The notes beneath the pieces are model-generated. The model searched no databases. It saw nothing but the letters and a program-made list of their open reading frames with translations, and was not told the DNA's origin. Shown here in pieces: positions 24,226-64,000 of a DNA stretch of 64,000 bases. The DNA lies in the UHGV virus genome UHGV-1374526. One strand, given 5' to 3'. This DNA is from a virus. Numbering within the stretch: the first letter of the stretch is position 1; every line of letters begins with the position of its first letter. Both the position numbers and the translations under genes were made by a program.

Positions 24226-24698
24226 AGAAGAACAGTAGAGGACTAATCGTCCATCCCGGATTGAAACATTCACGGAGGCCACGGCATAGTACTCCCCCGG
24301 TAAAGAACGTGCCACGGGGCTACATTGCCACTGGGGAGATTGCCGATAAAATCGGGAGAAGCTCCGTATGGGTAATTCACGCCCTGAACCGATTGAAGGT
24401 CAAACACGTTCGTTGTGGGCATACCATGTACTGGGAAGGGGAAGGAGCCAATGAATATATTCAGATGCAGGTCAAAGGTCTATATGACAGCATCCCGGAA
24501 GGGTACGTTGATGTAGCTACCGCATTGGAATCTACGGGCTTGAAGTCTCCGGCGTATCTGACCACCCTATTCAAGCGGGGCAAAGTTCAACGTGTACGGT
24601 ATCGTGATGATAGCGACCCTCGCGGTCGTAGGACACGGTTTGCGTATAATTTGCTTGACCTCCTTTCTCATTTGGGTTTAGATAGCTCTGACGTATGA
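24222..24698 (+). CDS. HTH DNA-binding protein (AlpA/Xis-like, tentative)
   Basis: Segment YIATGEIADKIGRSSVWVIHALNRLKVKHVRCGHTMYW resembles excisionase/AlpA-type HTH. Confidence 0.35.
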   Translation: MKKNSRGLIVHPGLKHSRRPRHSTPPVKNVPRGYIATGEIADKIGRSSVWVIHALNRLKVKHVRCGHTMYWEGEGANEYIQMQVKGLYDSIPEGYVDVATALESTGLKSPAYLTTLFKRGKVQRVRYRDDSDPRGRRTRFAYNLLDLLSHLGLDSSDV

Positions 24699-25048
24699 GA
24701 ACGACCTACTCTACAACCAGAACCATACAGAAGGGCCAGAGCAATCAGCGAGCCTTGCTCGGTCTCCTTCTGAATATTGACCTCCTTGACTTCTCCCTCA
24801 CCGTTGATAACATACGTGTCCTTCTGTACATGCACGCCAATGGATTTGAGAGTGAGCATAGTAACCCGGAAATTAGCAGGGGTACTCGCATCCAGATATC
24901 ATCTCTCTACTATGTCCTGCGCAAGCTGGAAGAAAAAGGGTATATTGAATACGAGGGAGTGAGGGGGTCGAGGAAACAAACTAAAAGTAAACTAACTCCG
25001 AAAGGTATCACTTTCTGTCGTGACATCTTCCGGCCACAAACAATCTAA
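24695..25048 (+). CDS. winged-helix transcriptional regulator (PadR/MarR-like)
   Basis: LYYVLRKLEEKGYIEYEGVRGSRKQTKSKLTPKGITF is a classic wHTH recognition helix plus wing. Confidence 0.5.
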   Translation: MRTTYSTTRTIQKGQSNQRALLGLLLNIDLLDFSLTVDNIRVLLYMHANGFESEHSNPEISRGTRIQISSLYYVLRKLEEKGYIEYEGVRGSRKQTKSKLTPKGITFCRDIFRPQTI

Positions 25049-27385: not shown

Positions 27386-27488
27386 AAACTCCCACGGAAC
27401 CCACGGAACCCACGGCCAAATGGTCACAATGGGTTCCGTGGGTTCCTTCGTTGTGTCATACCCACTAGCGTGTGCGGTTGTGTCATAC
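27386..27488. repeat. non-coding iteron/inverted-repeat locus A (CCCACGGAA direct repeats + GGGTTCCGTGGGTTCC partner + TGTGTCATAC x2)
   Basis: cccacggaa x2.5 at 27391-27415. Inverted copy at 27431-27446. ttgtgtcatac at 27451 and 27478. Confidence 0.6.
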
Positions 27489-27502: not shown

Positions 27503-27530
27503 TTGACCAGAATCTTCTTCTGTGTATGAT
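27503..27530 (+). promoter_or_regulatory. sigma70-like promoter (TTGACC-16-TATGAT), leaderless arrangement
   Basis: -10 ends 7 nt before the ATG at 27538. Confidence 0.5.
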
Positions 27531-29563: not shown

Positions 29564-29818
29564 ATGAAGAAGACCAACGATATTAGTATTGTAGATAATA
29601 AGAGAGTAGGAATCCTCAAGGTGAAATATGATGGAGATACCTTTGCCATCTTTAACTATTGTCGGGAGGGAGACGAGAAGGAACAGTGTTATCCCACGCG
29701 CGAAAGGGCTATAGAAATGGCGAAGATGGTTGCTCGCCATCTCATCCACGCGAATCCCGTTATGACAGAAAGGGGCATTGACCTTTACCCGACAGACTGT
29801 ACAATCCAAGACGAATAA
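29564..29818 (+). CDS. tandem-array paralog 1 (~80-aa family)
   Basis: Shares the FxV...A.FNYC...G....T...A...A.K.AR core with the next five genes. Confidence 0.5.
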   Translation: MKKTNDISIVDNKRVGILKVKYDGDTFAIFNYCREGDEKEQCYPTRERAIEMAKMVARHLIHANPVMTERGIDLYPTDCTIQDE

Positions 29819-29821
29819 ACC

Positions 29822-30061
29822 ATGAACGACAAAGTAGCTATTTTAGAAGACAAAGGATTTGGATTCTTCCGAGTAACTCACTGTGGAAGTGTCATTGCAG
29901 ATTTTCTTTACTGCACAGGCTCTGGTGAACAAGGATATATGACACGAGATTCCGCAAAGAAACTGGCAACGAAGATTGCCCGCTACGTAGTTAGCAGAGG
30001 GACAGTTTGTACCATCGAGGGAGTATCACTTAACCAAATCATTTTCAACATCGATGACTGA
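29822..30061 (+). CDS. tandem-array paralog 2
   Basis: GFFRVTHCGSVIADFLYCTG...TRDSAKKLATKIARYV. 8-nt ATGACTGA overlap with paralog 3. Confidence 0.55.
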   Translation: MNDKVAILEDKGFGFFRVTHCGSVIADFLYCTGSGEQGYMTRDSAKKLATKIARYVVSRGTVCTIEGVSLNQIIFNIDD

Positions 30062-30290
30062 CACTCTAAATATTACCACCATAGATGACCCCGATATCGG
30101 GTTTTTCTGGGTCCTGCTTGAAAACTGTTGCGTTGCCACCTTTTACTATTGCGTGAAAGATGATAGTGGCTTCTTCACCAAGGAGCAAGCTAAGAAACTA
30201 GCCAACAAGCTCGCCCGCAAAATTGAGAAGAGCATGATTATCGAAACCGAAAAGGGAATCAAATTGGAAAGGAACAACATCAATGAATAA
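30054..30290 (+). CDS. tandem-array paralog 3
   Basis: MTDTLNITTIDDP...FFTKEQAKKLANKLARKIEKS. N-terminus near-identical to paralog 5. Confidence 0.55.
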   Translation: MTDTLNITTIDDPDIGFFWVLLENCCVATFYYCVKDDSGFFTKEQAKKLANKLARKIEKSMIIETEKGIKLERNNINE

Positions 30291-30519
30291 CGATTCAGAT
30301 ACCCGTGTTTATGACATCCCTACTAGCGGAATGTTCCGCGTCAGGCACAGAGGAAGTTGCGTCGCCGTTTTCAACTATTGCGTGGCAGATGAAAGCGGCT
30401 TCTTCACCAAGAAGCAAGCTAAGAAACTAGCCATCAAGTTCGCCCGCAAAATTGAGAAGAGCACGGTCATAGAAACAAAGATGGGAATCAAACTTAAAAG
30501 GAACAATACTAATGACTGA
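30283..30519 (+). CDS. tandem-array paralog 4
   Basis: FFTKKQAKKLAIKFARKIEKSTVIETKMGIKLKRNN, nearly identical to the paralog 3 C-terminus. Confidence 0.55.
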   Translation: MNNDSDTRVYDIPTSGMFRVRHRGSCVAVFNYCVADESGFFTKKQAKKLAIKFARKIEKSTVIETKMGIKLKRNNTND

Positions 30520-30760
30520 CACTCTAAATATTACCACCGTAGATGACCCCATTGCCGGATTTTTCCGGGTCATGCTTGAAAACTGTTGCGTTGCCGCCTT
30601 TTACTATTGCACGGAAGGCGAGGAAGGACATTTCACCAAGAAGCAAGCCAAGAAGCTGACCGAGAAGCTAGTCCGCAAAATTGAAAATAGTACGACCATC
30701 AAAACCAAAAAAGGATTCAAACTACTTAAACCGAAAGGGAACGACAATGACCAACGATAA
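30512..30760 (+). CDS. tandem-array paralog 5
   Basis: MTDTLNITTVDDP...HFTKKQAKKLTEKLVRKIENS. Confidence 0.55.
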   Translation: MTDTLNITTVDDPIAGFFRVMLENCCVAAFYYCTEGEEGHFTKKQAKKLTEKLVRKIENSTTIKTKKGFKLLKPKGNDNDQR

Positions 30761-38394: not shown

Positions 38395-41300
38395 ATGGCT
38401 ATTGACTTTAGTACCGCCAATATGTCCGACTTCACTCCGAAGTCGGGAAGCAGTATTGCACGTGAACAGCGAGCCGCAGAAAGGCACGCCGCGTGGCAAG
38501 AGACGCAAGCGCAGAAACAGCAGGACCGAGAACAGAAAGCACTGGACCGCGAGCAAAGGTTAGCGGAAAAGAAACAGACCCGTGCCGAGAAGGGAGCGAC
38601 GGCGACCGCAGACTATGACACCTTCCTCTTTAAGTCTGTTGATGACTTTGCGGAGAAACAGAAAAAGGATGCGGAACACGCAAATAATGTAGAATGGCAA
38701 AATAAATCCCGCGCCCATACGGAACAAGAATGGAAAACCGCCGAGGAAAATAAAGCCCTCGACATCTTGAACAAAGGAAACCGTGGGTACAGCTTTGAGG
38801 GAATCGACTACATGAAAGACTATGTAGACCGCGGGGAAGATGCGCTGGTCGATTTGAAGGCCGCTTCCCGCGGTGATAGCGAGGCCATTAAGAAGCTTGC
38901 CAACAATACGGGACTTACCGTTGTGTCTTCTTCCGAGCTTACGCCTACGCACCCCACCTTCTTATCCCGCTCTGGCTTCGGAAGTGGAGAGGACGGGAAC
39001 CCCGTCGTAACGGAAAAGTTCCTCGCCATTGCCGCGGACAGAAACCGTAACGCAAAGGCGGTTGCCAAAGGCATTGCCAACACAATGGAAAAGGCCCGGA
39101 AGGATTACCTCAACTCGAATCTAGATGTTGGAACGGGTAAACCTACGGCGCAAGCCATCGAGACCGCACCTATTGCTTACACCGCAGAAGAAATAGAAAG
39201 CGTCATCAATACGATTAGGCGCGAAGACATTGGCAACTATCGTGCCGCTAAGGCTCTTTACGACAAACACCGCTCTTCTTCGACGGAAGGCGTGCAGAAG
39301 AAAACCCCCAGCCAAACGAGCGTGGGGGAGCTTGGCGTTGGCGAATTCTCTGATTCAGCACCTTCATTTACTGGGAATGTTTTTGCTGAACTCGCCAACC
39401 TTTCCAAGTCTCCCAGCAAAATGTTCCAGCTTGTCCGCGACTACGGGGATTACCTTTCCCGGAGTACGGAAGATATTGAATCCCCGGAATCTGCTACAGC
39501 GGATGCGAAACAACTCCATACAGACCAAGCAAAACTCATTTCAAAAAAAGAAAAACCTGTTGAGGATAGGATTCGTGAACAGATAGAAACAGCCGACAAA
39601 ATCGTAAGACGCCTCGAAGAGGACTACACTGGCCTTCCCTATCTCGAACTTCGCGACGCGCTTCTCAATCCAGAGGCCGCGGCCTCTGCCCTTCTGTCTT
39701 TAGTCCCCGGTGCTGACATGGACGCAATACGTGCACGGGCAAAGGTCATTACCGAGGAAGTTCGCCGCCAGAAGGACCGCCCTCTGACCGTCGAAAACCC
39801 CGAACAGATTGGCATGAGTGAGGCTATACTGGAAGCCGTGGCCACAAGGTTTCCGGGGGTTCCAAAATCTGCCCTGCGCCAAGCGGGAGTAACCAAACTG
39901 ATTCAGGACTATACCGCCAAAGCCACGCCGAAAGGCACTCTCATGGATGCAGTCAAAGGCGCACTGGCTAACTACCGAAGCACGGCGGGACAAATTGCGG
40001 ACGTACTTACCTTCCAACCGGATAATAGTGTGGGTAAGTACGCCGACCCAATGAGCTTGATGGAATGGAGGAAGGGAACGAGGCGTGGCTCATGGTGGTA
40101 TGGCATGCCGGGCGGCCCGTCCTTTGAAGTCGGACCGGAGAGGTTGAAGGAATACATGGCCCAGTACCATATTGAAAGTACTCGCGATGCCCTCAACTCC
40201 CTCTCCCATGCCGCACGTATGGGTGACTTGGGCGTTGGCCGTGGCAGTCTCTTTGCGTACAATCCGCACACCAAGGAAGTTGATACGAACGCCACGCTCG
40301 AACTGAATCCCAATGCTCTCTACAATGATAAGCTGATGGACCAGAGCATTGAGGCTCTCCGTGCTAGTGGCGCGGACGAGAAGCTTATCAATCGCACCAT
40401 TGAGAAGTTCCAGAACCTCCGCAAGAAATCCGCACAGGAACTTGTGAAGGACAACATGGCATTGGACGAGACGCTGGGGACGCTTCGCGATACGTGGCTT
40501 GGCTCCGGCTTGCAGTTCAACCCTGTCTTGACTGAATCCATGAAGCATCTGGACAAGTACCTTTCCTTCAAGAATTTCTACAACGAACAGAAGGAAGCGG
40601 GCAAGAGCGACGAGGACATCCTCTCCGCATGGCAGGAGAAAGGGCAAGCCACCTTCGATTCTGTTCTCCGTGGGTTACAGATAGGTACACACAAGGCAAT
40701 CGACCTTGGGACAAGTACCGCCTATGGTGCTCTTCTCTTTGCACAGAATGCAGTTGGCAGTCGTGCGGCGATGGAACATACCCGCACCCTCTGGGACCAG
40801 CTGAACAAAAAACAGGAAGCAGAAGCCGAGTTGGTTCGAGGCAATATCCTTGCGGACTATACTGCGGAAATCGCTAACCTCGGCTACCAAATGGTAGCAA
40901 CCGCGGGGGCTGGTAAAGTTGGTGGCCTCGCTGGCCGTGCACTGACACGTACCGCGCTCAATAAATTCATGAAGGCAACGGCTAACGTCGTAGCGAAGCG
41001 GGCCGAAGCTCTTGTCCCTGCCGCCCGTCCGGGATTGGCGGGACGTTTGAGTGGAACTATTCAGCGCAACCTCGACAACCTTGCGGCGTTGAACCTCGAA
41101 CGGGCAGGAGCCGGAGCCGGGGTAAATCTTAGCATCATCTCGCAGGTTGCACCGAATGCTTACTCCGACATCTTCTATACCATTTATGATAGGGAGATGG
41201 AAGGGAAGGAACCGACTGCCGAGAACACGAACAGGGCACAGAGCATTGCCAACATGCGTGCTCTCTTTGGTGCGGCTCTCGTATCTACTGGTAGTACTCT

Positions 41301-44300
41301 CATCAACAACCGCGCAGGTATGGATTCCTTCATGCGTAAGATTGTTGGGGCTAAAAACCTTCGCGGTCAATCTCCATTCCAAACTCTTGAACGGAAGATG
41401 GCCGGATGGAGAAGCAAGCCATTTAAGGAGATGAACACGAAGGAAAAGACGTTTGCCGTTGCTTCCTATCTGTACAGCCAGAGCAAGGCCGTAGTGGAAG
41501 GAGCCACCGAAGAACTGGCAGACGAATTCCAAGAGTGGGCGTTTACCGAACTGGTGAAGAACGGAGAAATCTCCGAATCCTCTATTGCCACTACTGACCA
41601 AGTGATTAGCACAGGCATGAAGATTGCTTTCCTCGGAGGTATCGGCGGCTACGTTGGTAGCCACTTAGCTGGTGAAGGGAACATACGTTTCCAAACCGAA
41701 GCCGCTCCCACTCTCGATGTAAAGGATGCTACTTCCATGCTACCGGATATTACGAAAGATGCGAGCAACATCATCGAGGAAACGGGCAAAGCCATTACCA
41801 AAAACAATGTGCCGGAAAGCTTGGTAGAAACCGGAAAGAAGGTTATCGAGATTGCCGGGGAGAAGGGAGATGCCGCGGAAGTTGCCCGCGAATGGGTGGA
41901 CAAATCCATTGCCCATGAAAGTCTGGCAGTCTCCGATGAAACCCGCAAGGCGTGGGTGGAAGGAGCAACCCGTATGGGCATCAGCAACTTCACCCAGTTC
42001 CGCAACCTAGTGGAACGGGCCTCCGAAATATATACCTATGAGGGCAGTGCCGCGGCAAGCTCATTCATGGCAGAAGCCATTAACGACCTGCCCAATACCC
42101 TGTCATTCCCAAATAAGGAAAACCTCGACACCATGCGCACCATGCTTTCGGAGGCCCTTGATGCTATGGGAGACCGGGTTCAGGTTATCGAAGTAGACGA
42201 CGACCTGTCCATCATTACTACAGGGGACGAGGACCTTGATGCCGCCATTAACGTTATTAACGGATTGACGGAAGCCGCGGCTACCACGGAACCCAAGGAA
42301 TCCCCGGCTACCGCGGAACCCACGGAATCCCCGGTAGCTATTGCCCGGAAGGAGAGGGACAATGCTATTGCCCCCATCACTGCTATGGTAGAGACGGGAG
42401 TAGTTACCCCAGAAGCTACCGCTTCCGTGGATAACATGGATGCGGCAATCACCTCGTTCGACCCCAACACCGGGGCATGGCTCTCATCCGGTTCACCTCT
42501 GGACCGCGGCGCGAAGCTCGTCTCCCTGAACGAGATGACCGGGATTAACGCCCCCATGATTACCAGCAACACGGGAGAAACCGTTGTCATCGCTCCGCAC
42601 GCAAGCATGTACAACACAGGTGAGGGAGGGACACCCAGCACCAAGTGGGGGGACAAGGTCTCCGCTCTCAATCTCCCGACGGATGGGACTGGCGCAAATG
42701 CCTACGGCACGCTTCGCGGCCTTCAAGTTAATGCCTCCCCCGCACAGGCCGCGGCCATTGATGGAGTGCTCCGCGCACTGCATGCCGCTGGTTTGGACGT
42801 CGCTATCCGTGCAACCAATGCCCCGGCGAACATCTCTTCCCCTGCCAGTATCACCTACATGAACGGCACGGACGGGAAGCTTGTCGGCGGTGTCATTGAC
42901 CTGTACGTGAACCGGGATAACCCGATTGAAAGCGTAACGGGAACGGTACTACACGAAGTCATCCACCTCATTGACCGTCATCTTCGTACCACCAACACGG
43001 ACTATTCCCAGCGGATGGATAGGATTAGAAGCGCGATTGCAGAGAACTACAACAACATTGTCGATAGTCTCTCCGCTATGTATGACGCTAGCGTGGACAT
43101 CAATGAGATGAACGCCATCGCCGCGCTCGCTTCCGACCTCAACTACGGTCTCCGCGGTGCGGACGAATTTGCCAGTGTCGCGTTCTCCAATCCTGTCATG
43201 AACTTCATGGTAGCGGAAGCTAGCGGAGACAATATCACCATCACGGATTTGGCTCGCTATGCCGAAGCGGCGGGAGGCCGGAAGCCCGTGCACGTGCGCC
43301 TCGTCGAATGGCTTAAAGATTTGATTAGGGACATCAAAGATACTGCGGACGATATGGACGGAACCACCGCCGCAGAACGCGTGGCTGAATGGGATTCCTA
43401 TGTGGCCCGCGTCGCGGACATGACCCCCGGCAAGTGGTTCGATATGCCTCGCACTCCGTCATGGAAAGTAGATGATACGGATTATACTATGGGCAACGGG
43501 GTAGATTATTTTAACCCGATGGCCTATGAGACCGACATGACCCGGAGATTGTCCTTCGGCCTTGGCGCAGAAATCATTGGCACGAAGGCCGGGAACTGGG
43601 TAACTAGTATTAAGAACGTATGGCAAGGCGTGTCTAAGGGCTTGGACAAAGCAGGCATCAATGTTAAGTCCGAGGAACAGAAGCTGGTTGTGCTGGAACA
43701 AATGGCCAATGTTAATGCGGCGTATGAACGCAGTATTAAACGCATTGACAAAATTGGTGATATGCTTCAACGCCGTGCGGATAATCTGGGCTGGGATGCC
43801 GCTACGCGAAAGAAATGGAGCAAGTCCATTCTTGACATGTCGGGGAATATGGACAACGATATTGACCCTGAAACTGTTGCACGCATTAACGCAGAGGCTC
43901 AAGCAGAAGTTCGTCAGCATGAACAGACCCGCGACTTCCGTATCGCGTTGGCTAAGAAGACTGTCACCGATGCCGTCAATAGGCACGCGGAAGCGGTGCG
44001 TCTGGCTAACTCCCTTGCGCTTAATAGTGAAGGGCGATTGGAAATCAACGACATGATGCGCCGGATTAAAGACATGAGCGGCAAGGGATATGGAGCCATG
44101 CTGGACAAGCAGGTAGCTCTCCCCATGCTCTCCCAGCAGATTCACAAATCTCTCTCCGACCTTGGCTCTCGTATCTCCGCGACGGGGGATGCCAATCTGG
44201 ATATCACCTACTTTGGCCTTGCCCGCGACACGCAAAACTATCTCGCGGATATGATTAACGAAGTGGATAGTCCCTTCTCTATGGATGAACTTCTGGACAG

Positions 44301-47300
44301 GTGGTCCAACCTTCGCAATGACTTCCTCTATGCGGAGAGTACAAACCATCCCGTCATCGCTCCTATGATTCAGGACATCGCTAAGGCACGGGCCGAAGCT
44401 AAACAAATCATCCGGGAAGCCAATGATGATTTCCACGCCGCAACAAAGAGGGCAGGTGTAACTCGCGCTGGCGTAGCTACCCCTGCTGGTTCCGTGTGGC
44501 TGAAACGAGACAACGCTATCCTCAATGCTCGCCGTCAAAAACAAGCGGAGTATATGGCTAAGCGGGATGCCGCTGAACAGTGGCTTCTGTCACAAGGAGT
44601 TGTAGGCCAACTGGTCCACAATGTCATCGCCGATTCCCGTAAAGAAATTGCCGCAACGCAAATCTCTATTGCCAAGCTCATTGGAGATAGCCGTATGGCT
44701 GACAACGCCGCGGAGATGAATTATCTTCATCGCACCTACATGGCCGTTGGACGCCATGCCGGAGACTTCACCCGGACGATGAAGGACATCATCGCAAACC
44801 CCAACGGAGAACTGGCGCAGAAATACGATGGTCTGACGAAACTGTTGCAGGAAGCCGCAATCTCTCATGCCGAAGCGCACCAGAGAGAACTATCCGAAAA
44901 CGTAAGCCAAGTGCTGGACAACATGCAGGCATTGGCCGCGCTCCACGACGAGTTGAAACTTCCGCTGGTGTCAGCTCCCACGGGAGCCTCTTCGAATTAT
45001 AAACTCCTGTTCGAAGGTGTAGCCAAGAACTACAGGACCAGAGAAATTCTTGACTTCATTCAGAACAACTTCGGTCAGGTTCAAATGCTTGCGGACTTGA
45101 GGGACGGCCACAACATCAGTGCCATATATAATAAGGCCATGAGCATGATAGCACAGGCAGACTATCGCACGAAGTCAAAGATGACAGAGAGGAAGGAAAC
45201 TCTGGACATGAATGCCAGAGATAGTTTCCTCGCTGATGTCTTCTCCAGCCTTCCGGGAAAAACGATTGCGGACAAAATCGGCAGTCTTCAATCCCCGGCA
45301 TCCGTGGCTTCCGAAGTGAACAAGGCCATCCCCACTATCCCGACTTCGGCCATTGACCAGATATGGAACACGCCTAATATGAATGCCGCAGAACGACTGG
45401 ACAAGACGCTCAATCTTCTTCGCGGTCAGGCTGGCGTTCTCATGAGGATGAACGGCATGGGCAACGTCATCTCCGCTACCGACTTGAAAGCGTTGCAATA
45501 TCCGGAACTCTCCCGTCTTGCGGTGAACGATGCCATGAAGGCCATTGACGAAGTACTGTCCAAGAAGAGGACGAATGAAGATGCGCTGGCCCAGCGGAAA
45601 CGCTTGCCCGAATGGCAGAGGAAAGCTATGTATGAACTTAGCGACCTCACCATTGGGGATGCCATTGGGACGTTACAGAATACCCTATCCATGCAGTCGA
45701 AGATTGCCGTGAACCAGTTGCTTGCTGACGAGTATACCTCCGTACTGAAAGCGCAGGGTGTGGTCGTACCCCCGAATTCCACGAACCGTACTTCGGACAT
45801 GGTGGAAATCTCCTTGAAGAATACGAAGAATGCGTTGAACGGAATGTACGCCGACAAGGATGTAGCCGATGCCATCTACCGCATCTACAGGCCGAGCGAC
45901 GACATCCTGAATAGCAGGACGGACGACTATAAGGAGGTCCGCGAGTACTGGCAGAAGTCCGGCAAGGGGCAAGGATGGTGGAGTAAGGCGGGTGGCTTGG
46001 CTAACCTTTCTGTCTTAATAGCGAGTCCTAATTCCACGTTACGTAACTTATATGGTACAGTAGCTCAAATGACCCATGCGGGTGCACTTCCATTCACGGG
46101 GAGTAAAGAAATCGCAAAGCTTATCGGAGATTGGAGCCAGATGTATAAACTGCGGAAGTTGTCCCGCGGTAAAGACCTTGCTTCACAGGCTTCCGCGGAT
46201 AGACTGCTGGCCGCGGAAGACAGGTACAACGAGAAGATTCGCTACTGGCAAGAGCTTGGTCTGCTGGACGCAGGTCAAGGGGAGTTCCTGCGCAACGTCT
46301 GGAAGTCTGACGAGTTCAGTAAGATGGCAGGAGAATTTGAAGAAGTGAATGAGGATTCCTTCTTCAAACTGGCCGAAGCTCTGAACGAGAAACAGGAACG
46401 GACGAAGGGCGAGGTGGCTAAGGATGTCGCCAAGACGGCGGGCAAAGTCGTAGCATGGCCCATCAAAACGATGTCCTTCGCCTATGGCTTGCCGGACGCG
46501 GCGGCCAAGATTGCTCTCTTCACTAACCAGAGAGCGATTGCCGATACCCAATTAAAGGTACAACTGGCACGGGCGAAAGGCAAGGCCAACCCCAATGCAC
46601 GGGACCAGATACTCCTTGACGCGAGCCAGACTACCCAGAGTTGGGATGCTTATGTGGACAGGTATACTGCCAACATGGTGAAGAGCTTGCTCCCCACGGG
46701 TTCGCGTACTCCTTCGTGGGTGAAAACCCTGAATATAGTTGCGGCTCCGTTCTTCATGTTCCAGTACCATACCTTCCAGTCTGTAGCCTACAACCTTGGC
46801 CACGCCATAGGTGAAGGGGTAGACGGTGTGTGGGCTATCAATAACGGCATGAAGAAGGAGGGGGCTTACCTCTTGGGACGCGCTATCCTTCGCATCGCTG
46901 GTTCCGCAGTAACTATTGGTGCAACCTCTGCGGTCTCTTCCTGGGTTGCCCGACAGATTATCGCCAGTGTCTTGGGAGATGACGATGACCATAAAATCAT
47001 TGACGACGCGGAAGTCATGAGGAAGCTGGCAGATAGTGGGCTAATTCCTGACTATGATAAGTTCGGGGACTTGATTGGCATCATAGATATGAAGCGACAT
47101 GAGTTCGAGTATTTGACCCTTGAATACATGAACCCGTTCAAGACCATCAGGGTGTTAGCCAAACCCCTGCCCAGCCTCTTCATGGATATGGATGTGGACA
47201 AGTGGGGGATGAACAAGGTTGCCGAACTGAAAAACCTGCTGGAAAATACGGTGCTTGAAGAATCCCTCCTTCTGAACACAGCTACTGAATTGTTTAATGA

Positions 47301-48090
47301 GGAAGACTTCAATTACAAGCATAGCCTCTCCGGTGATGAAAGCGTCAACGTTCTCCCGGCAGTCGGCAACGCAATCCTGTTGGCCGCAGGGCTGAACCCC
47401 TCGTTCGGCAGTGGACACACGTGGCAAGCCCTTGAACGTGTCGCGACGGTTGCCAATAAAAAGATTCCCGTCTACGGCTGGTTAGTCAAGTCTGGTAAAC
47501 AAATGTTTAGTGATACGCCCGACATGAGTGCCGAGGCATACGGGTTACAGACCTTTGGTACTGGTCTCCGTCGTCCGAAGGATTTGACCGAAGCCCTTGC
47601 CGCCGGGTTAAAGAATGCCAACGCGGCAGTCACTAAGTCGAAGCGAATGAGCGTCCTTCGTCCGGACTTCTACAAGAGAATGGAATCCGGGGTGGATGTG
47701 GAATCTATGGAAGCCGTGGAAACCGCGGATGCCGTGAAGAATTTCACCAAGCTAGTCAATAGTGTCCGGTTTGTTACGGAAATTACAAACATGCTTGACC
47801 CCGCTCTGCGGAAGGAAGTTCTGGCTTCCGCGATTGAGAGTTCCGGTATGAGTGCCAAGACCTACGGCGCGGCCATGAAAGGCATCATGCCCTACATCAT
47901 TAGCCCGCAAGCAGGACGTGAGGCTATCGCGAAACTCAACCGCGAATTGCAGAAGTCTAATACCACGGACGAGGGCAAACGCCTAATCGAAGAGCAGAAG
48001 AAACTCATTATCAACCTCATGAGGAAGGGTAGCATTCAGATTGATGGGGCATTGAGTGCGGAGGAAATTCATAATCGGATGAAGCAGTAG
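38395..48090 (+). CDS. giant 3231-aa protein with embedded HExxH zincin-like motif (virion/ejection polyvalent-protein or tape-measure-like candidate)
   Basis: Uninterrupted 9.7-kb ORF. TVLHEVIHLIDRH at about nt 42950. Largely helical, low-complexity composition with coiled-coil N-terminus. No RNAP motifs seen. Confidence 0.65.
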   Translation: MAIDFSTANMSDFTPKSGSSIAREQRAAERHAAWQETQAQKQQDREQKALDREQRLAEKKQTRAEKGATATADYDTFLFKSVDDFAEKQKKDAEHANNVEWQNKSRAHTEQEWKTAEENKALDILNKGNRGYSFEGIDYMKDYVDRGEDALVDLKAASRGDSEAIKKLANNTGLTVVSSSELTPTHPTFLSRSGFGSGEDGNPVVTEKFLAIAADRNRNAKAVAKGIANTMEKARKDYLNSNLDVGTGKPTAQAIETAPIAYTAEEIESVINTIRREDIGNYRAAKALYDKHRSSSTEGVQKKTPSQTSVGELGVGEFSDSAPSFTGNVFAELANLSKSPSKMFQLVRDYGDYLSRSTEDIESPESATADAKQLHTDQAKLISKKEKPVEDRIREQIETADKIVRRLEEDYTGLPYLELRDALLNPEAAASALLSLVPGADMDAIRARAKVITEEVRRQKDRPLTVENPEQIGMSEAILEAVATRFPGVPKSALRQAGVTKLIQDYTAKATPKGTLMDAVKGALANYRSTAGQIADVLTFQPDNSVGKYADPMSLMEWRKGTRRGSWWYGMPGGPSFEVGPERLKEYMAQYHIESTRDALNSLSHAARMGDLGVGRGSLFAYNPHTKEVDTNATLELNPNALYNDKLMDQSIEALRASGADEKLINRTIEKFQNLRKKSAQELVKDNMALDETLGTLRDTWLGSGLQFNPVLTESMKHLDKYLSFKNFYNEQKEAGKSDEDILSAWQEKGQATFDSVLRGLQIGTHKAIDLGTSTAYGALLFAQNAVGSRAAMEHTRTLWDQLNKKQEAEAELVRGNILADYTAEIANLGYQMVATAGAGKVGGLAGRALTRTALNKFMKATANVVAKRAEALVPAARPGLAGRLSGTIQRNLDNLAALNLERAGAGAGVNLSIISQVAPNAYSDIFYTIYDREMEGKEPTAENTNRAQSIANMRALFGAALVSTGSTLINNRAGMDSFMRKIVGAKNLRGQSPFQTLERKMAGWRSKPFKEMNTKEKTFAVASYLYSQSKAVVEGATEELADEFQEWAFTELVKNGEISESSIATTDQVISTGMKIAFLGGIGGYVGSHLAGEGNIRFQTEAAPTLDVKDATSMLPDITKDASNIIEETGKAITKNNVPESLVETGKKVIEIAGEKGDAAEVAREWVDKSIAHESLAVSDETRKAWVEGATRMGISNFTQFRNLVERASEIYTYEGSAAASSFMAEAINDLPNTLSFPNKENLDTMRTMLSEALDAMGDRVQVIEVDDDLSIITTGDEDLDAAINVINGLTEAAATTEPKESPATAEPTESPVAIARKERDNAIAPITAMVETGVVTPEATASVDNMDAAITSFDPNTGAWLSSGSPLDRGAKLVSLNEMTGINAPMITSNTGETVVIAPHASMYNTGEGGTPSTKWGDKVSALNLPTDGTGANAYGTLRGLQVNASPAQAAAIDGVLRALHAAGLDVAIRATNAPANISSPASITYMNGTDGKLVGGVIDLYVNRDNPIESVTGTVLHEVIHLIDRHLRTTNTDYSQRMDRIRSAIAENYNNIVDSLSAMYDASVDINEMNAIAALASDLNYGLRGADEFASVAFSNPVMNFMVAEASGDNITITDLARYAEAAGGRKPVHVRLVEWLKDLIRDIKDTADDMDGTTAAERVAEWDSYVARVADMTPGKWFDMPRTPSWKVDDTDYTMGNGVDYFNPMAYETDMTRRLSFGLGAEIIGTKAGNWVTSIKNVWQGVSKGLDKAGINVKSEEQKLVVLEQMANVNAAYERSIKRIDKIGDMLQRRADNLGWDAATRKKWSKSILDMSGNMDNDIDPETVARINAEAQAEVRQHEQTRDFRIALAKKTVTDAVNRHAEAVRLANSLALNSEGRLEINDMMRRIKDMSGKGYGAMLDKQVALPMLSQQIHKSLSDLGSRISATGDANLDITYFGLARDTQNYLADMINEVDSPFSMDELLDRWSNLRNDFLYAESTNHPVIAPMIQDIAKARAEAKQIIREANDDFHAATKRAGVTRAGVATPAGSVWLKRDNAILNARRQKQAEYMAKRDAAEQWLLSQGVVGQLVHNVIADSRKEIAATQISIAKLIGDSRMADNAAEMNYLHRTYMAVGRHAGDFTRTMKDIIANPNGELAQKYDGLTKLLQEAAISHAEAHQRELSENVSQVLDNMQALAALHDELKLPLVSAPTGASSNYKLLFEGVAKNYRTREILDFIQNNFGQVQMLADLRDGHNISAIYNKAMSMIAQADYRTKSKMTERKETLDMNARDSFLADVFSSLPGKTIADKIGSLQSPASVASEVNKAIPTIPTSAIDQIWNTPNMNAAERLDKTLNLLRGQAGVLMRMNGMGNVISATDLKALQYPELSRLAVNDAMKAIDEVLSKKRTNEDALAQRKRLPEWQRKAMYELSDLTIGDAIGTLQNTLSMQSKIAVNQLLADEYTSVLKAQGVVVPPNSTNRTSDMVEISLKNTKNALNGMYADKDVADAIYRIYRPSDDILNSRTDDYKEVREYWQKSGKGQGWWSKAGGLANLSVLIASPNSTLRNLYGTVAQMTHAGALPFTGSKEIAKLIGDWSQMYKLRKLSRGKDLASQASADRLLAAEDRYNEKIRYWQELGLLDAGQGEFLRNVWKSDEFSKMAGEFEEVNEDSFFKLAEALNEKQERTKGEVAKDVAKTAGKVVAWPIKTMSFAYGLPDAAAKIALFTNQRAIADTQLKVQLARAKGKANPNARDQILLDASQTTQSWDAYVDRYTANMVKSLLPTGSRTPSWVKTLNIVAAPFFMFQYHTFQSVAYNLGHAIGEGVDGVWAINNGMKKEGAYLLGRAILRIAGSAVTIGATSAVSSWVARQIIASVLGDDDDHKIIDDAEVMRKLADSGLIPDYDKFGDLIGIIDMKRHEFEYLTLEYMNPFKTIRVLAKPLPSLFMDMDVDKWGMNKVAELKNLLENTVLEESLLLNTATELFNEEDFNYKHSLSGDESVNVLPAVGNAILLAAGLNPSFGSGHTWQALERVATVANKKIPVYGWLVKSGKQMFSDTPDMSAEAYGLQTFGTGLRRPKDLTEALAAGLKNANAAVTKSKRMSVLRPDFYKRMESGVDVESMEAVETADAVKNFTKLVNSVRFVTEITNMLDPALRKEVLASAIESSGMSAKTYGAAMKGIMPYIISPQAGREAIAKLNRELQKSNTTDEGKRLIEEQKKLIINLMRKGSIQIDGALSAEEIHNRMKQ

Positions 48091-49147: not shown

Positions 49148-49233
49148 GTATTGACATCATAGGTACTGCATGGTATAAAGAATCCACAACGACATCATTC
49201 TGTTTGGACTGTAAGTTGTTTGGGTTCTAAGCG

Positions 49234-49272
49234 AAAACCCCGGAAGGAAATATCTTCCGGGGTTTTTGTTTT
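49234..49272. terminator. bidirectional intrinsic terminator between convergent gene blocks
   Basis: aaaa-ccccggaag-gaaatat-cttccgggg-tttttgtttt. A-run and T-run on either side. Confidence 0.65.
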
Positions 49273-57554: not shown

Positions 57555-57641
57555 AAGTTATTTCTTTCTAATGGTGTTTTATTGTTTGGTTAGAGTTATT
57601 TGAGGGTTCTAATAAATAGGGTAGCTGGGGCGGGGTTTAAG

Positions 57642-58530: not shown

Positions 58531-58959
58531 TTATTTTGAGAAGAGAACAACGAGGGGGATAGGAATATCCAAAAAGTTTCTATCTGTGTAAAGGGTAAAA
58601 GAATCAGAGTTTGTGCCATAATATTGCACGGCTCTTTCCCGGAATAATCTAATAGAGTTGCTTCTCACATACGGTTCGGCTTTCGGCTCGCACGTAGGAA
58701 CGGTGGTTGTGCAATCGGAAAGACGAGCACGGAACCTTTCTGTATTTTCAATCAAGTCCCTAACCTTGTAAGCGTTAAACTCTACAAGTTTAATGCTAAC
58801 GGCATTCTGAATACTGACGTGTTCATGAATCTCCTGCGCGTCCGGGTAGTAGTCATAGGTGCGCACAATGCGGCACTTTTCACCTTGGCTATTAACGGCG
58901 TTTGATGAAACGTCTTGCGCTTCCGTAGTTCCCCATACTTCAATCTCATTTTCTTTCAT
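58531..58959 (-). CDS. hypothetical protein
   Basis: 142-aa ORF. Confidence 0.45.
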   Translation of the reverse strand: MKENEIEVWGTTEAQDVSSNAVNSQGEKCRIVRTYDYYPDAQEIHEHVSIQNAVSIKLVEFNAYKVRDLIENTERFRARLSDCTTTVPTCEPKAEPYVRSNSIRLFRERAVQYYGTNSDSFTLYTDRNFLDIPIPLVVLFSK

Positions 58960-59011
58960 AGTATTATTCTTTCTATTGTTTTGTTGATATAGTTGCCGCC
59001 CTTCCGGTGGC

Positions 59012-59039
59012 TGATGAATGTACTTTAGCAGATTTTCTT
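59012..59039 (-). promoter_or_regulatory. leftward promoter cassette copy
   Basis: TTGACAAGATAAGAAAATCTGCTAAAGT on the minus strand. Confidence 0.55.
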
Positions 59040-59109
59040 ATCTTGTCAAATACTTTTTGTAGAGCGGCGTAGTTATTCACGGTCTGTAATTTATGATTGG
59101 TTTATTGTT

Positions 59110-59264
59110 AAACCCCGGAATCCCCGGAACCCGTTGCACCCGATATCCCCCGCATTCCGGGGGCGGGAATTATTCCTTTGTCTTTCTACTTTTTCTTTCT
59201 ATTTGGTTAGAGTTATTTGACGGGTTCCGGGGGTTCCGGGGTTTAAATGTTCCACGTGGAACAA
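59110..59264. repeat. iteron/inverted-repeat locus B: 24-bp arms AAACCCCGGAATCCCCGGAACCCG / CGGGTTCCGGGGGTTCCGGGGTTT (1 mismatch) separated by about 87 bp, plus palindrome TGTTCCACGTGGAACA
   Basis: Arms at 59110-59133 and 59221-59244. Palindrome at 59249-59264. Non-coding 317-nt gap. Confidence 0.65.
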
Positions 59265-59276
59265 GCCGCAAGTGGT

Positions 59277-59807
59277 TTATATTCTTCCAGTTGCCAGCGT
59301 TTGGCCGTGCATCGTGCGAACCCAGAAATTAACGATATCACGGGGACGGGGCGATACATTGTGCCCGTTCATATCGGTGAAAGTATGTCCCATTTCTACC
59401 AAGCCAATCAGGTTGCGGATAGTACTACGCAGGGTTTGATTTCCTTTCAGGTACACCTTTACCCGGCTACCGTCTGTAAGCTTGAGTTCAAGGTAGCAGT
59501 TAGTCATCCGGCAACCCGGATTTATCCATGACAAGACGGCGCCCATGTAGCGGGGCAGGACATAGTATTTTACACAGGGGCAGGGGGAACCGAAAGCCGG
59601 AGTGGCAGAATGAAGGGCAACCTGCTGGCCTTCAACGAGGTAGGCAAGATAGTAGTCTTTTTCCCACTCTTCAATGTTTTCAATGTCATCAGGGGCGAGG
59701 CTTTCATCTTCCCCACACGCCAAGTAATTGAGGGCATAGGTGGGAATGTCATGGATAAGGGCATAGTCTGATACTTTAAGAACTTCCGGTTTAGTTGTAG
59801 TCTTCAT
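59277..59807 (-). CDS. hypothetical protein
   Basis: 176-aa ORF. Confidence 0.45.
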   Translation of the reverse strand: MKTTTKPEVLKVSDYALIHDIPTYALNYLACGEDESLAPDDIENIEEWEKDYYLAYLVEGQQVALHSATPAFGSPCPCVKYYVLPRYMGAVLSWINPGCRMTNCYLELKLTDGSRVKVYLKGNQTLRSTIRNLIGLVEMGHTFTDMNGHNVSPRPRDIVNFWVRTMHGQTLATGRI

Positions 59808-63554: not shown

Positions 63555-63619
63555 AGAGCGTCAAGCGGTTTTCTTTCCGGCGCGTTGTAACTCGCTAACT
63601 ATCTGCGAGTTATAATTGT

Positions 63620-64000
63620 GTCATACAACTTTTGTGTGCGGTTGCGTCATACTCGCTAGCGCGTGCGGTTGCGTCATACAACTTTCCCGGTTCCCCCGGT
63701 TCCCCCGGTTCCCCCGGTTCCCCCGGTTCCCCCGGTTCCCTTTTATATATATAGTGTAGGGAAATGTAAATGTAAATGTAAATGTTCCACATGGAACATT
63801 TATGCAATCCGGATTCCGGATTCCGGCAATCGGGCAATCGGTTTGTTGTGGTGGGATAGCGGGTTCAACGGCTTCAACGGGTATCAGGATTCAACGGGTA
63901 TCAGGATTCAACGGCTTCAACGGGTATCAGGATTCAACGGATATCCGGTAGTTGTGGTGGGATAGCGGGTTCAACGGGTTCAACGGGTTCAACGGGTTCA
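63620..64000. repeat. repeat-dense non-coding region with multiple tandem repeat families (candidate genome terminus/origin)
   Basis: GCGTGCGGTTGCGTCATAC x2. CCGGTTCCC x6 (63686-63740). AAATGT x4. Palindrome AATGTTCCACATGGAACATT (63781-63800). GGATTCC x2. GGCAATCG x2. Roughly 30-bp unit GTTGTGGTGGGATAGCGGGTTCAACGG x2. Many (G/C/A)TTCAACGG and GGTATCAGGA units up to the window edge. Confidence 0.7.

What the first reader, a model, noticed from the sequence alone, without database searches (positions are those of the whole stretch)
59110..59264. 24-bp inverted repeat pair flanking an ~87-bp spacer plus CACGTG-core palindrome in the early region
AAACCCCGGAATCCCCGGAACCCG (59110-59133) and its reverse complement (59221-59244, 1 mismatch) bracket a spacer containing a CCCCCG/CGGGGG hairpin. 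The palindrome TGTTCCACGTGGAACA follows immediately. The module lies in a 317-bp gene-free gap between an upstream gene end and the next promoter cassette. A homologous module (GGTTCC repeats plus AATGTTCCACATGGAACATT) occurs at 63.69-63.80 kb. The structure resembles an iteron-type origin or centromere-like site rather than a terminator.
Basis: seen in the sequence. Interest (0 to 1): 0.65.

Follow-up and report, generated by a model that had tools for sequence, protein, structure and literature searches.

The report
Phage repeat module with centromere palindrome
An uncultured ~70-kb human-gut phage carries, between two early genes, a 139-bp inverted-repeat element built from its own 9-bp repeats, next to a 16-bp palindrome that matches letter for letter the bacterial chromosome centromere site parS; it looks like a spare copy of the phage's replication/partition control DNA, but that function is inferred, not shown.

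Summary
A 27-nt inverted repeat (59108-59134 / 59220-59246, 26/27 complementary) brackets an 85-nt spacer, with a perfect palindrome at 59248-59263.

Three findings change the reading.
- TGTTCCACGTGGAACA is exactly the chromosomal ParB-binding site parS. A second copy with one mismatch lies at 63783-63798. I found no ParA or ParB gene in the phage.
- The arms are two opposed pairs of CCCCGGAAY 9-mers. The same 9-mer occurs as direct arrays in the non-coding control region, next to a primase-helicase related to SaPI Rep. It persists there in species whose primase-helicase is only 66% identical.
- The element is single-copy, specific to this lineage and absent from 3 of 37 related loci. It shows no real covariation. 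In half of the relatives a promoter-less gene follows it directly.

A sole essential origin, an efficient terminator, a MITE and an inverton are therefore all unlikely. My best guess (0.35) is an accessory DNA-level protein-binding module: iteron-like repeats around a 75% A+T tract, plus a parS-type site, copied from the control region. The main rival (0.25) is an intercistronic RNA hairpin acting as an RNase III site or 3' stabiliser.

The parts
59220..59246 (.). Arm of the inverted repeat nearest the upstream gene. In the gene-sense (minus) direction it reads TTAAACCCCGGAACCCCCGGAACCCGT: two CCCCGGAAC 9-mers plus an inner GGAACCCGT unit.
   Evidence: The unit number varies from 2 to 3 among relatives (L005).
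59108..59134 (.). Arm of the inverted repeat nearest the downstream promoter. In the gene-sense direction it reads ACGGGTTCCGGGGATTCCGGGGTTTAA.
   Evidence: The mid-arm position (A/G) varies independently of its partner (C/T): C/A 11, T/A 6, C/G 2, T/G 1 among 20 distinct sequences.
59168..59219 (.). A+T-rich part of the spacer: 52 nt, 75% A+T, purine-rich on the gene-sense strand. Its sequence resembles the phage's own translation leaders (TCAAATAACTCTAACCAAATAGAAAGAAA).
   Evidence: It is homologous to the intergenic leader at 57555-57641. Relatives carry 1-nt and 5-nt indels, so it is non-coding.
59139..59167 (.). G+C-rich internal hairpin, CCCG(ATAT)CCCCCG-CATTC-CGGGGG-CGGG.
   Evidence: Its stems are invariant in relatives apart from C-run length. 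The loop varies (GAATG/GATTG).
59248..59263 (.). Perfect 16-bp palindrome TGTTCCACGTGGAACA, identical to the canonical chromosomal parS (ParB-binding centromere).
   Evidence: 0.00 expected by chance; literature. The outer 12 positions are invariant in every intact copy found; only the central CpG varies, as ACGT/ACAT/ATGT. As an RNA hairpin it is weak: -7.1 kcal/mol, z -0.98.
59022..59049 (-). Sigma70-like promoter cassette, TTGACA-16-TAAAGT, followed by a 5' stem-loop. It drives gene 58531-58959 and starts 59 bp beyond the inverted repeat.
   Evidence: It is one of six near-identical cassettes. It is missing in 17 of 34 relatives, where an ORF follows the element directly.
63779..63802 (.). 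Second parS-like palindrome, TAAATGTTCCACATGGAACATTTA, in the non-coding control region.
   Evidence: It is conserved in relatives.
63686..63740 (.). Direct array (GGTTCCCCC)x6.1, from the same GGAAC-core 9-mer family as the arms. An 81% A+T stretch (63741-63782) separates it from the second palindrome.
   Evidence: Equivalent CCCCGGAAC arrays occur in relatives and in sister species (L036, L056, L067, L186, L327).
27391..27446 (.). Sibling inverted repeat built from CCCACGGAA 9-mers: 17-bp perfect arms and a 17-nt loop. It lies between a stop codon and a TTGACC-17-TATGAT promoter and is followed by GTCATAC/GTGCGGTTG motifs that also flank the control-region array.
   Evidence: -41.2 kcal/mol. 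It is conserved even where the upstream gene is only 49% identical (L145).

Best explanation
The module is a cis-acting DNA site. It is a recent, dispensable, partial copy of the repeat set that fills the phage's main non-coding control region, which lies between the divergent early operon and the primase-helicase gene.

I infer that its two opposed pairs of GGAAC-core 9-mers act as iterons for a phage DNA-binding protein. The most likely candidate is the primase-helicase related to SaPI Rep. The small winged-helix protein encoded at 24695-25048 is an alternative. The 52-nt A+T-rich tract between the repeat pairs would be the segment that bends or melts.

The adjoining palindrome is a parS-type site. 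Because the phage has no detectable ParB, the host's ParB could load there. Together they would form an accessory origin- or partition-like module, not the phage's only origin.

Shown: the anatomy; the exact identity to parS; the sharing of motifs with the control region; the conservation of the 9-mer sequence across species; the dispensability.

Inferred: which proteins bind, and what binding achieves.
For: 1. The palindrome plus GGAAC-core repeats plus an A+T-rich stretch occur together twice: at 59.1-59.26 kb and in the control region at 63.69-63.80 kb. In the control region the repeats are direct arrays. Direct arrays cannot form a hairpin, so the shared feature is the sequence motif, not a fold.

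2. The CCCCGGAAC 9-mer array persists in the non-coding control region of sister species. These have a DNA polymerase 81-84% identical, or a primase-helicase 66% identical. That indicates constraint on the sequence itself.

3. The arms tolerate a central mismatch in 11 of 20 distinct sequences and an unequal unit number (3 versus 2). Of 40 predicted pairs, 33 never vary. The RNAalifold covariation term is -0.17.

4. The geometry matches SaPI origins: at least two short iterons on each side of an AT-rich region, pointing in opposite directions, recognised by the Rep winged-helix domain (PMC9371898). The phage's 952-aa primase-helicase matches the SaPI1 Rep1 helicase 7PDS with E = 2.7e-5 and carries the VapE-like domain.

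5. TGTTCCACGTGGAACA is a published parS, and chance expectation in the window is 0.00. ParABS homologues and consensus parS sites were found in all 12 gut bacteria examined in PMC10197239.

6. The element is 94-100% identical among relatives whose flanking gene is only 86-98% identical at the nucleotide level.
Against: - No binding, melting or partition has been shown.
- The element is absent from L012, L021 and L157 and from sister species. It cannot be essential.
- It lies about 6 kb from the primase-helicase gene, whereas SaPI origins lie immediately downstream of rep. Downstream of this gene there is only a promoter.
- The control region holds at least six other repeat types, including eight ~19-bp repeats that look more like classical iterons.
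- The C-terminal winged helix of the primase-helicase could not be verified, because the AlphaFold2 model reached only pLDDT 39.
- The centre of the palindrome is polymorphic (CG/CA/TG) and many genomes have no perfect copy. This is also what a hairpin loop would show.
- Sister species lack the palindrome.
- The identity to parS could be coincidence, given that the phage's repeats are built on GTTCC.
- High conservation may reflect youth and recombination rather than selection.
- CCCCGGAA also forms the stem of a bona fide terminator at 49229-49271.
Confidence: 0.35

Rival explanations
1. RNA-level element. The early operon is transcribed through the module. The 27-bp stem, with the internal hairpin, folds in the mRNA and serves as an RNase III processing site and/or a protective 3' structure that uncouples the upstream and downstream cistrons, as the intercistronic RNase III sites do in T7 early mRNA. 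It might also attenuate transcription weakly.
For: - The RNA fold is very stable: -86.6 kcal/mol with z -6.7 for the 231-nt region, and -69.4 kcal/mol with z -7.5 for the element alone.
- It lies 30 nt after a stop codon.
- In 17 of 34 relatives a promoter-less ORF starts 27-30 nt downstream, so the element must be transcribed within a polycistronic RNA.
- Every early promoter cassette carries a 5' stem-loop, so this phage uses RNA structure heavily.
- The outer stem, AAACCCCGGAA/TTCCGGGGTTT, equals the stem of the convergent terminator at 49229-49271.
- The sibling repeat at 27.4 kb has a short loop and a U/C-rich tail.
- One lineage (L009, L150) extends the stem by matched changes on both sides.
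Against: - There is no real covariation. The mid-stem position is a C.A mismatch in the sense RNA in 11 of 20 distinct sequences, and the two sides vary independently.
- Matched changes occur in two sequences from one lineage, and they are broken in L005 and L023.
- The 85-nt loop is as conserved as the stem, which a stem-only function does not require.
- There is no U-tract after the stem: UUUAAC in most, GAACAAU in L005, L009 and L150.
- It does not explain why the same 9-mers form direct arrays beside the same palindrome in the control region.
- No Rfam family matches. The best hit scores 24.6 bits against a gathering score of 180.
Confidence: 0.25
2. The element has no function of its own. 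It is a young by-product of the slippage-prone, recombination-prone repeats of this phage: an inverted duplication of 9-mers from the control region or a terminator, around a captured leader fragment. It is kept similar among genomes by recent ancestry and by exchange of mosaic modules.
For: - It is restricted to one species-level cluster. It is absent from L012, L021 and L157 and from sister species.
- Deletions bounded by short direct repeats are frequent here. L021 lost everything between two TTCCGGGG copies. The window itself lost 19 bp between two TTGTTCC copies.
- Unit number varies (L005).
- The spacer is a patchwork of a leader-like segment (homologous to 57555-57641) and a segment resembling control-region sequence (GGGTGCAACGG in L036).
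- The flanks are mosaic, with three alternative downstream modules.
- The loop of the 49.25-kb terminator flips among relatives, which shows that inverted repeats here rearrange at the DNA level.
Against: - It is retained in 34 of 37 loci and is more conserved than the adjacent coding sequence.
- It survived a deletion that removed the 3' half of the upstream gene (L159).
- The exact parS sequence beside it, conserved at two loci, is unlikely to be junk.
Confidence: 0.15
3. Upstream operator arrays. The GGAAC 9-mers, and perhaps the palindrome, are binding sites for a phage or host transcription regulator that controls the sigma70-like promoters lying 60-120 bp downstream of each array.
For: Arrays precede promoters at three places: 59 bp before the -35 at 59049, 58 bp before the -35 at 27504, and about 120 bp before the -35 at 63564. 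The 27.4-kb and control-region copies share the intervening GTCATAC/GTGCGGTTG motifs. A MarR/PadR-like winged-helix protein is encoded at 24695-25048.
Against: Half of the relatives keep the element but have no promoter after it. The motif between array and promoter differs at 59.1 kb. No regulator has been linked to the sites.
Confidence: 0.1
4. A mobile or invertible element: either a MITE with 27-bp terminal inverted repeats, or an invertible DNA switch.
For: It is 139 bp long with 27-bp terminal inverted repeats, flanked by TTAA/TTTAA, and present or absent among close relatives.
Against: - There is one copy per genome, always in the same context.
- No copy of the paired arms exists in the genomes of 185,579 bacterial species. 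The single arm occurs only seven times, scattered in unrelated environmental MAGs.
- The deletion in L021 ends in TTCCGGGG direct repeats, not at the ends of the inverted repeat.
- The spacer has the same orientation in all 34 copies.
- No transposase or recombinase was found (Pfam).
Confidence: 0.03

Closest known systems
Chromosomal parS, the ParB-binding centromere of the ParABS system (consensus tGTTNCACGTGAAACa; TGTTCCACGTGGAACA in Pseudomonas aeruginosa and P. putida)
   Same: The 16-bp palindrome at 59248-59263 is identical to it. The copy at 63783-63798 differs at one central base. As on chromosomes, one copy lies in the putative replication-control region.
   Different: It is on a phage that encodes no detectable ParA or ParB. 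The central CpG is polymorphic among relatives. Sister species lack it. Binding by any ParB is untested and the host is unknown.
SaPI replication origins bound by Rep or Pri-Rep self-loading helicases (PMC9371898)
   Same: Short GC-rich repeats with a 5-nt core, at least two on each side of an A+T-rich centre, pointing in opposite directions. The genome encodes a fused primase-helicase whose helicase core matches SaPI1 Rep1, PDB 7PDS.
   Different: - SaPI origins lie immediately 3' of rep. This element is about 6 kb away, in another operon.
- The repeat period is 9 nt.
- Part of the 'centre' is a G+C-rich hairpin.
- The element is dispensable.
- The Rep winged helix could not be confirmed.
Satellite phage P4 ori plus crr: two separated clusters of TGTTCACC octamers bound by the alpha primase-helicase (from my own knowledge, not checked here)
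   Same: Two separated cis sites, here 4.5 kb apart, carry the same short repeat in direct and inverted orientation. The genome's initiator candidate is a primase-helicase.
   Different: P4 crr is required for replication, whereas this element is dispensable. The repeat sequence and the protein family differ in detail. Nothing was tested.
Dispersed centromere sites of the linear plasmid-prophage N15 (inverted repeats bound by SopB; from my own knowledge)
   Same: Several copies of a centromere palindrome are scattered in a phage genome, some close to phage promoters.
   Different: N15 encodes its own SopA and SopB and is a known plasmid prophage. This phage shows no partition or lysogeny genes.
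RNase III processing sites between T7 early genes, and REP/BIME elements of enterobacteria (from my own knowledge)
   Same: Intercistronic, hairpin-forming and dispensable. BIME/RIP elements are likewise two inverted G+C-rich units around an A+T-rich protein-binding linker.
   Different: This element is single-copy with a much longer, near-perfect stem. No processing data exist, no covariation is seen, and no IHF consensus is present in the spacer.

Membership tests
Chromosomal-type parS centromere | A 16-bp palindrome matching tGTTNCACGTGAAACa | tested here: met
   It matches the Pseudomonas parS at 16 of 16 positions and the B. subtilis consensus at 15 of 16. Chance expectation in the window is 0.00.
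Chromosomal-type parS centromere | A cognate ParB (and ParA) encoded by the replicon or available in the host | tested here: inconclusive
   No ParBc or ParA Pfam hit in any window ORF of 100 aa or more that was scanned with Pfam, nor in the ~6 kb outside the window. The DNA polymerase, helicase and terminase ORFs were scanned with PHROGs only. The host is unknown. ParABS was reported in all 12 gut species of PMC10197239.
Chromosomal-type parS centromere | ParB nucleation and spreading, and ParA-dependent stabilisation of the replicon | not testable with these tools
   This needs ChIP-seq, gel-shift or plasmid-stability assays in the host.
Chromosomal-type parS centromere | Conservation of the site among relatives | tested here: inconclusive
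   The outer 12 bases are invariant at both sites, but the central CG varies as CG/CA/TG. The site is absent from sister species.
Iteron-type origin of the SaPI Rep kind | At least two short iterons on each side of an A+T-rich region, pointing in opposite directions | tested here: met
   There are 2-3 GGAAC-core 9-mers per side in opposite orientation, with a 52-nt tract of 75% A+T between them. The definition comes from PMC9371898.
Iteron-type origin of the SaPI Rep kind | An initiator that is a self-loading helicase with a C-terminal winged-helix domain | tested here: inconclusive
   The helicase core is homologous to SaPI1 Rep1 (7pds_A, E = 2.7e-5; VapE-like domain). About 170 residues follow the core, but the AlphaFold2 model was unusable (pLDDT 39).
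Iteron-type origin of the SaPI Rep kind | Origin located immediately next to the rep gene | tested here: not met
   The element is about 6 kb from the primase-helicase gene. The 350 nt downstream of that gene hold a promoter and no repeats. The control-region arrays do lie upstream of the gene.
Iteron-type origin of the SaPI Rep kind | Required for replication | tested here: not met
   It is absent from L012, L021 and L157 and from sister species. It can only be an accessory site.
Intrinsic (Rho-independent) terminator | A G+C-rich hairpin with a short loop, followed at once by a U-tract | tested here: not met
   The loop is 85 nt. The sense-strand tail is UUUAAC, or GAACAAU in L005, L009 and L150. 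In 17 of 34 relatives a promoter-less ORF lies 27-30 nt downstream.
RNase III processing site / structured intercistronic RNA | At least 20 bp of dsRNA within a transcript, with pairing maintained in evolution | tested here: inconclusive
   A 27-bp stem is predicted. However, 33 of 40 pairs never vary, the mid-stem is mismatched in 11 of 20 sequences, and matched changes occur in only one lineage.
MITE (e.g. Correia-like element) | Many dispersed copies with terminal inverted repeats and target-site duplications | tested here: not met
   There is one copy per genome in one context, and none in the genomes of 185,579 bacterial species.
Invertible DNA switch (inverton) | Both orientations of the segment found in populations, with a recombinase | tested here: not met
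   The spacer has the same orientation in all 34 copies. No recombinase was found.

The most novel reading that the evidence does not exclude
A virulent-looking human-gut phage with no integrase and no ParA or ParB detected carries two host-type parS centromere sites. They bracket its first eight early genes, and one lies in the replication-control region. Host ParB-CTP clamps would load on the incoming or replicating phage DNA. The phage episome could then be partitioned by the host's ParABS system during a carrier state. Alternatively, its early operon could be silenced or organised by ParB spreading, or host ParB could be titrated away from the chromosome. The adjacent opposed 9-mer iterons would make this a compact 'origin plus centromere' cassette that the lineage has duplicated.
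Probability: 0.2. Interest if true: 0.75.

Novelty: new variant of a known kind. Interest (0 to 1): 0.5.

Why it matters
Persistent gut phages are often maintained for long periods without classical lysogeny, and how their DNA is inherited is an open question. A phage that borrows the host centromere sequence without encoding its own ParB would make that question testable. One could use ParB ChIP, parS point mutants and plasmid-stability assays with the 59.1-kb or 63.7-kb module.

The module also marks the likely replication-control DNA of an uncharacterised phage lineage. Most of its proteins lack any database match. These include the 3231-aa virion-region ORF, for which I found no homologue.

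If the element turns out to be only an intercistronic RNA hairpin or a recombination scar, the finding is ordinary. The exact parS match would still need an explanation.

Tried and rejected
- **Known phage relatives.** The nucleotide search and a terminase protein search found nothing. The DNA polymerase and ligase are under 30% identical to anything in GenBank phages.
- **Rfam.** Gathering thresholds on the whole window and a permissive search on 58900-59400 gave only chance-level hits. No tRNA genes were found.
- **MITE.** Rejected.
- **Inverton.** Rejected, because only one spacer orientation occurs.
- **Protein coding.** The + strand ORF 59093-59332 is broken by 1-nt and 5-nt indels in relatives. 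A 15-codon sense ORF that starts in the hairpin loop loses its ATG in L003 and L147.
- **Efficient terminator.** Rejected (see the membership test).
- **GC-skew switch at 59 kb.** None; skew follows the direction of transcription.
- **Genome-wide enrichment or strand bias of GGAACCC.** None: 19 and 12 copies against about 14 and 13 expected. Half-parS GTTCCAC occurs 15 times against 8.2 expected, and three of the 15 lie in the palindromes themselves.
- **Giant ORF as a virion RNA polymerase, which would have suggested N4-type hairpin promoters.** No Pfam, PHROG or PDB-sequence hit and no DxDGD motif.
- **IHF consensus in the spacer.** None convincing, by eye.
- **Winged helix in the primase-helicase.** Only five homologues exist and the AlphaFold2 model failed (pLDDT 39), so no fold search was run.
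- **Literature on phages carrying host-type parS without a ParB gene.** I found nothing in the held library. Canonical parS 16-mers are nevertheless common in IMG/VR contigs.
- **Livny et al. 2007.** Not held in the library.

Full report
**Context**

The window is most of a ~70-kb phage genome known only from human-gut metagenomes. IMG/VR relatives mostly come from sample 3300045988, and ENA and Logan hold gut assemblies. It has no close relative among GenBank phages.

Genes from 0.4 to 48.7 kb are on the + strand. They include DNA polymerase A, a helicase, a PD-(D/E)XK nuclease, the terminase and a 3231-aa ORF with no detectable homologue. Genes from 49.3 to 63.5 kb are on the minus strand. 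They include ThyX, an NAD-dependent ligase and about 15 small orphan early genes.

The early genes are served by six near-identical cassettes. Each has a sigma70-like promoter (TTGACA-16-TAAAYT), a 5' stem-loop and an AATAGAAAGAA leader. Shine-Dalgarno motifs are almost absent.

The window ends inside a 2-3 kb non-coding region packed with tandem arrays. In relatives this region separates the early operon from a divergently transcribed 952-aa primase-helicase gene.

**The observation**

- The inverted repeat has 27-nt arms (59108-59134 and 59220-59246) with 26 of 27 positions complementary. It is the longest in the window.
- The 85-nt spacer consists of a G+C-rich hairpin (59139-59167) and a 52-nt tract of 75% A+T with strong purine/pyrimidine asymmetry.
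- The palindrome TGTTCCACGTGGAACA is at 59248-59263.
- A second palindrome (63783-63798, one mismatch) lies beside a (GGTTCCCCC)x6 array.

Read in the direction of transcription, the order is: stop codon, palindrome, inverted-repeat element, promoter, next gene.

**What the palindrome is**

A full-text search for the sequence returned only papers on bacterial chromosome segregation. TGTTCCACGTGGAACA is the perfect parS of Pseudomonas aeruginosa and P. putida. It differs at one position from the Bacillus/Burkholderia consensus TGTTNCACGTGAAACA. No shuffle of the window produced even one site within one mismatch of the consensus, whereas two sites are observed.

In relatives both sites are retained. 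Their outer 12 bases are invariant and only the central CpG varies, as ACGT, ACAT or ATGT. As an RNA hairpin the palindrome is weak, at -7.1 kcal/mol with z -0.98.

I found no ParA or ParB domain in any ORF scanned with Pfam, which covered nearly all window ORFs of 100 aa or more and the ~6 kb outside the window. If the site is used, the host's ParB is the obvious candidate. ParABS and consensus parS sites were reported in all 12 gut species studied in PMC10197239.

Three cautions apply.
- The phage's own repeats are built on GTTCC/GGAAC, so a palindrome on that core has a small but real chance of matching parS by accident.
- The polymorphic centre is also what a hairpin loop would show.
- Sister species lack the palindrome.

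**What the arms are**

Each arm is two CCCCGGAAY 9-mers plus an inner GGAACCCGT unit. One relative has three 9-mers on one side. The same family of 9-mers, a GGAAC core plus a four-base G/C run, occurs elsewhere:
- as direct arrays in the control region of this phage (63686-63740);
- in close relatives (L036, L067);
- in a sister species with DNA polymerase 81-84% identical (L056 and L186, six copies);
- in a third species whose primase-helicase is 66% identical (L327:1789-1821).

A second inverted repeat of this family (CCCACGGAA units, 17-bp arms, 17-nt loop) lies at 27391-27446, between a stop codon and a promoter. It is followed by the same GTCATAC/GTGCGGTTG motifs that flank the control-region array. 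The convergent terminator at 49229-49271 uses a single CCCCGGAAG unit as its stem.

**Comparative behaviour of the element**

- **Occurrence.** It is present in 34 of 37 related loci that cover the position; some metagenome contigs duplicate IMG/VR ones. It is always single-copy and always in the same place.
- **Absences.** It is missing from L012, from L021 (a deletion between two TTCCGGGG repeats that also removes the palindrome) and from L157, and from the early region of a sister species.
- **Conservation.** It is 94-100% identical among genomes whose upstream gene is 86-98% identical at the nucleotide level. It survived a deletion of that gene's 3' half (L159).
- **Downstream context.** It is followed either by a promoter cassette (17 relatives plus the window) or directly by a promoter-less ORF 27-30 nt away (17 relatives). 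Transcription must therefore cross it.
- **Pairing.** Thirty-three of 40 predicted pairs never vary. The one variable mid-arm position changes independently on the two sides: C/A 11, T/A 6, C/G 2, T/G 1. Matched changes are confined to four outer pairs in two sequences of one lineage and are broken in two others. The RNAalifold covariation term is -0.17.
- **Orientation.** The spacer is never inverted, although the 7-nt loop of the 49.25-kb terminator is found in both orientations.
- **Other genomes.** No copy exists in the genomes of 185,579 bacterial species.
- **Coding potential.** The + strand ORF across the element is broken by indels in relatives, so it is non-coding.

**Interpretation**

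An efficient terminator, a MITE, an inverton and a sole essential origin are each contradicted by a tested feature (see the membership table). Two readings remain.

I prefer the DNA-level reading at 0.35, for three reasons.
- The palindrome, the GGAAC 9-mers and an A+T-rich stretch occur together at two loci, and at one of them the repeats are direct and cannot form a hairpin.
- The 9-mer is conserved as sequence in non-coding DNA across species.
- Pairing in the arms is not protected.

The geometry is that of SaPI origins: at least two short iterons on each side of an AT-rich region, pointing in opposite directions, recognised by the winged helix of a self-loading Rep helicase (PMC9371898). 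The phage's primase-helicase is related to SaPI1 Rep1 (7PDS, E = 2.7e-5).

I therefore read the module as an accessory copy of the phage's replication/partition control DNA: iteron-like repeats around a segment that can melt, plus a parS-type site. Which proteins bind, and with what effect, is inference.

Four points weaken this reading.
- The element is far from the primase-helicase gene.
- The element is dispensable.
- The control region contains other repeat types that look more like classical iterons.
- The initiator's winged helix could not be confirmed.

The main rival, at 0.25, is an RNA hairpin within the polycistronic early mRNA, acting as an RNase III site or a 3' stabiliser. It explains the position and the very stable fold. 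It does not explain the sharing of motifs with the control region or the conserved 85-nt loop.

Two further readings are less likely: a neutral by-product of the repeat-rich, mosaic early region (0.15), and promoter-upstream operator arrays (0.1).

**Verdict**

The feature is real and specific to this lineage. The palindrome is literally a centromere consensus and the repeat geometry has a precise precedent. Function is unproven and an essential origin is excluded. Novelty is a new variant of known kinds. Interest is moderate (0.5). It would rise if a host-type parS on a phage without ParB proves functional.

Noticed in passing
window 63564, 62790, 62285, 60278, 59049, 58492 (-35 positions, minus strand): Six near-identical early promoter cassettes: TTGACA-16-TAAAYT, then a 5' stem-loop, then an AACAATAGAAAGAA leader. 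They separate orphan early genes. Shorter intergenic modules (TACGCCGCCCTATAAAA, TGTCATACAAC) also recur. The pattern recalls the promoter/stem-loop cassettes that shuffle genes in T4-type phages.
   Followed up: partly
window 49229-49271, and the same site in L096-L120: The convergent bidirectional terminator has its 7-nt loop in both orientations among close relatives (GATATTTC versus GGAAATAT). This is a hairpin-loop flip polymorphism.
   Followed up: partly
window 38395-48090 (+): A 3231-aa ORF at the end of the structural module has no Pfam, PHROG or PDB-sequence match and no DxDGD motif. Its function is unknown.
   Followed up: partly
window 29564-30760 (+): A 229-bp tandem repeat x3 (71% matches) corresponds to four or five tandem paralogous ORFs of 78-84 aa.
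   Followed up: no
whole window: Almost no gene has a Shine-Dalgarno motif; upstream regions are A-rich. Yet the promoters look like canonical sigma70 promoters, and G+C is 50.8%. The primase-helicase shows a faint BT4734-like N-terminal domain. The host is unknown.
   Followed up: partly
window 63800-64000, and L171:1470-4700, L006:430-3600: A 2-3 kb non-coding region lies between the divergent early operon and the primase-helicase gene. It holds at least six different tandem arrays: 7-, 8-, 9- and 17-mers and eight ~19-bp repeats. It also holds a TATATATA stretch and duplicated ~100-bp segments with promoter-like sequences. It is probably the real replication/control region.
   Followed up: partly
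window 24695-25048 (+): A 117-aa winged-helix protein (HTH_27/MarR/PadR-like) with weak PHROG similarity to lambda-O-like replication initiators. It is a candidate binder for the palindromes or repeats.
   Followed up: no
window 59248-59263 and 63783-63798, and relatives: At both palindromes the only polymorphism is at the central CpG (ACGT, ACAT, ATGT), and it recurs in many genomes. This suggests a mutational hot spot such as a methylated CpG, or relaxed constraint at the centre.
   Followed up: partly
L009, L150, L005, L023 (region downstream of the 59277-59807 homologue): In some relatives the intact palindrome is gone. Its halves, AATYGTTCC and GGAACRATT, instead flank the whole inverted-repeat element and extend the repeat by about 9 bp. 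L005 and L023 carry only one of the two changes.
   Followed up: partly
IMG/VR loci L206-L325: Canonical parS 16-mers are frequent in viral contigs. TGTTTCACGTGAAACA occurred 95 times against 16-26 for each of the three sister variants. It is often clustered, with 3-5 sites within a few kb. Whether these contigs are phage-plasmids, contaminants or phages without ParB was not examined.
   Followed up: no
window 42270-42334, 22880-22908, 23476-23516, 13904-14082: GGAA(C/T)CC-type 9-mer and 27-mer repeats also occur inside coding regions, including the giant ORF. They probably encode P/G/T/E-rich linkers. A conserved coding copy, ATCCCCGGAACCCCCGGAACCCC, exists in relatives.
   Followed up: no
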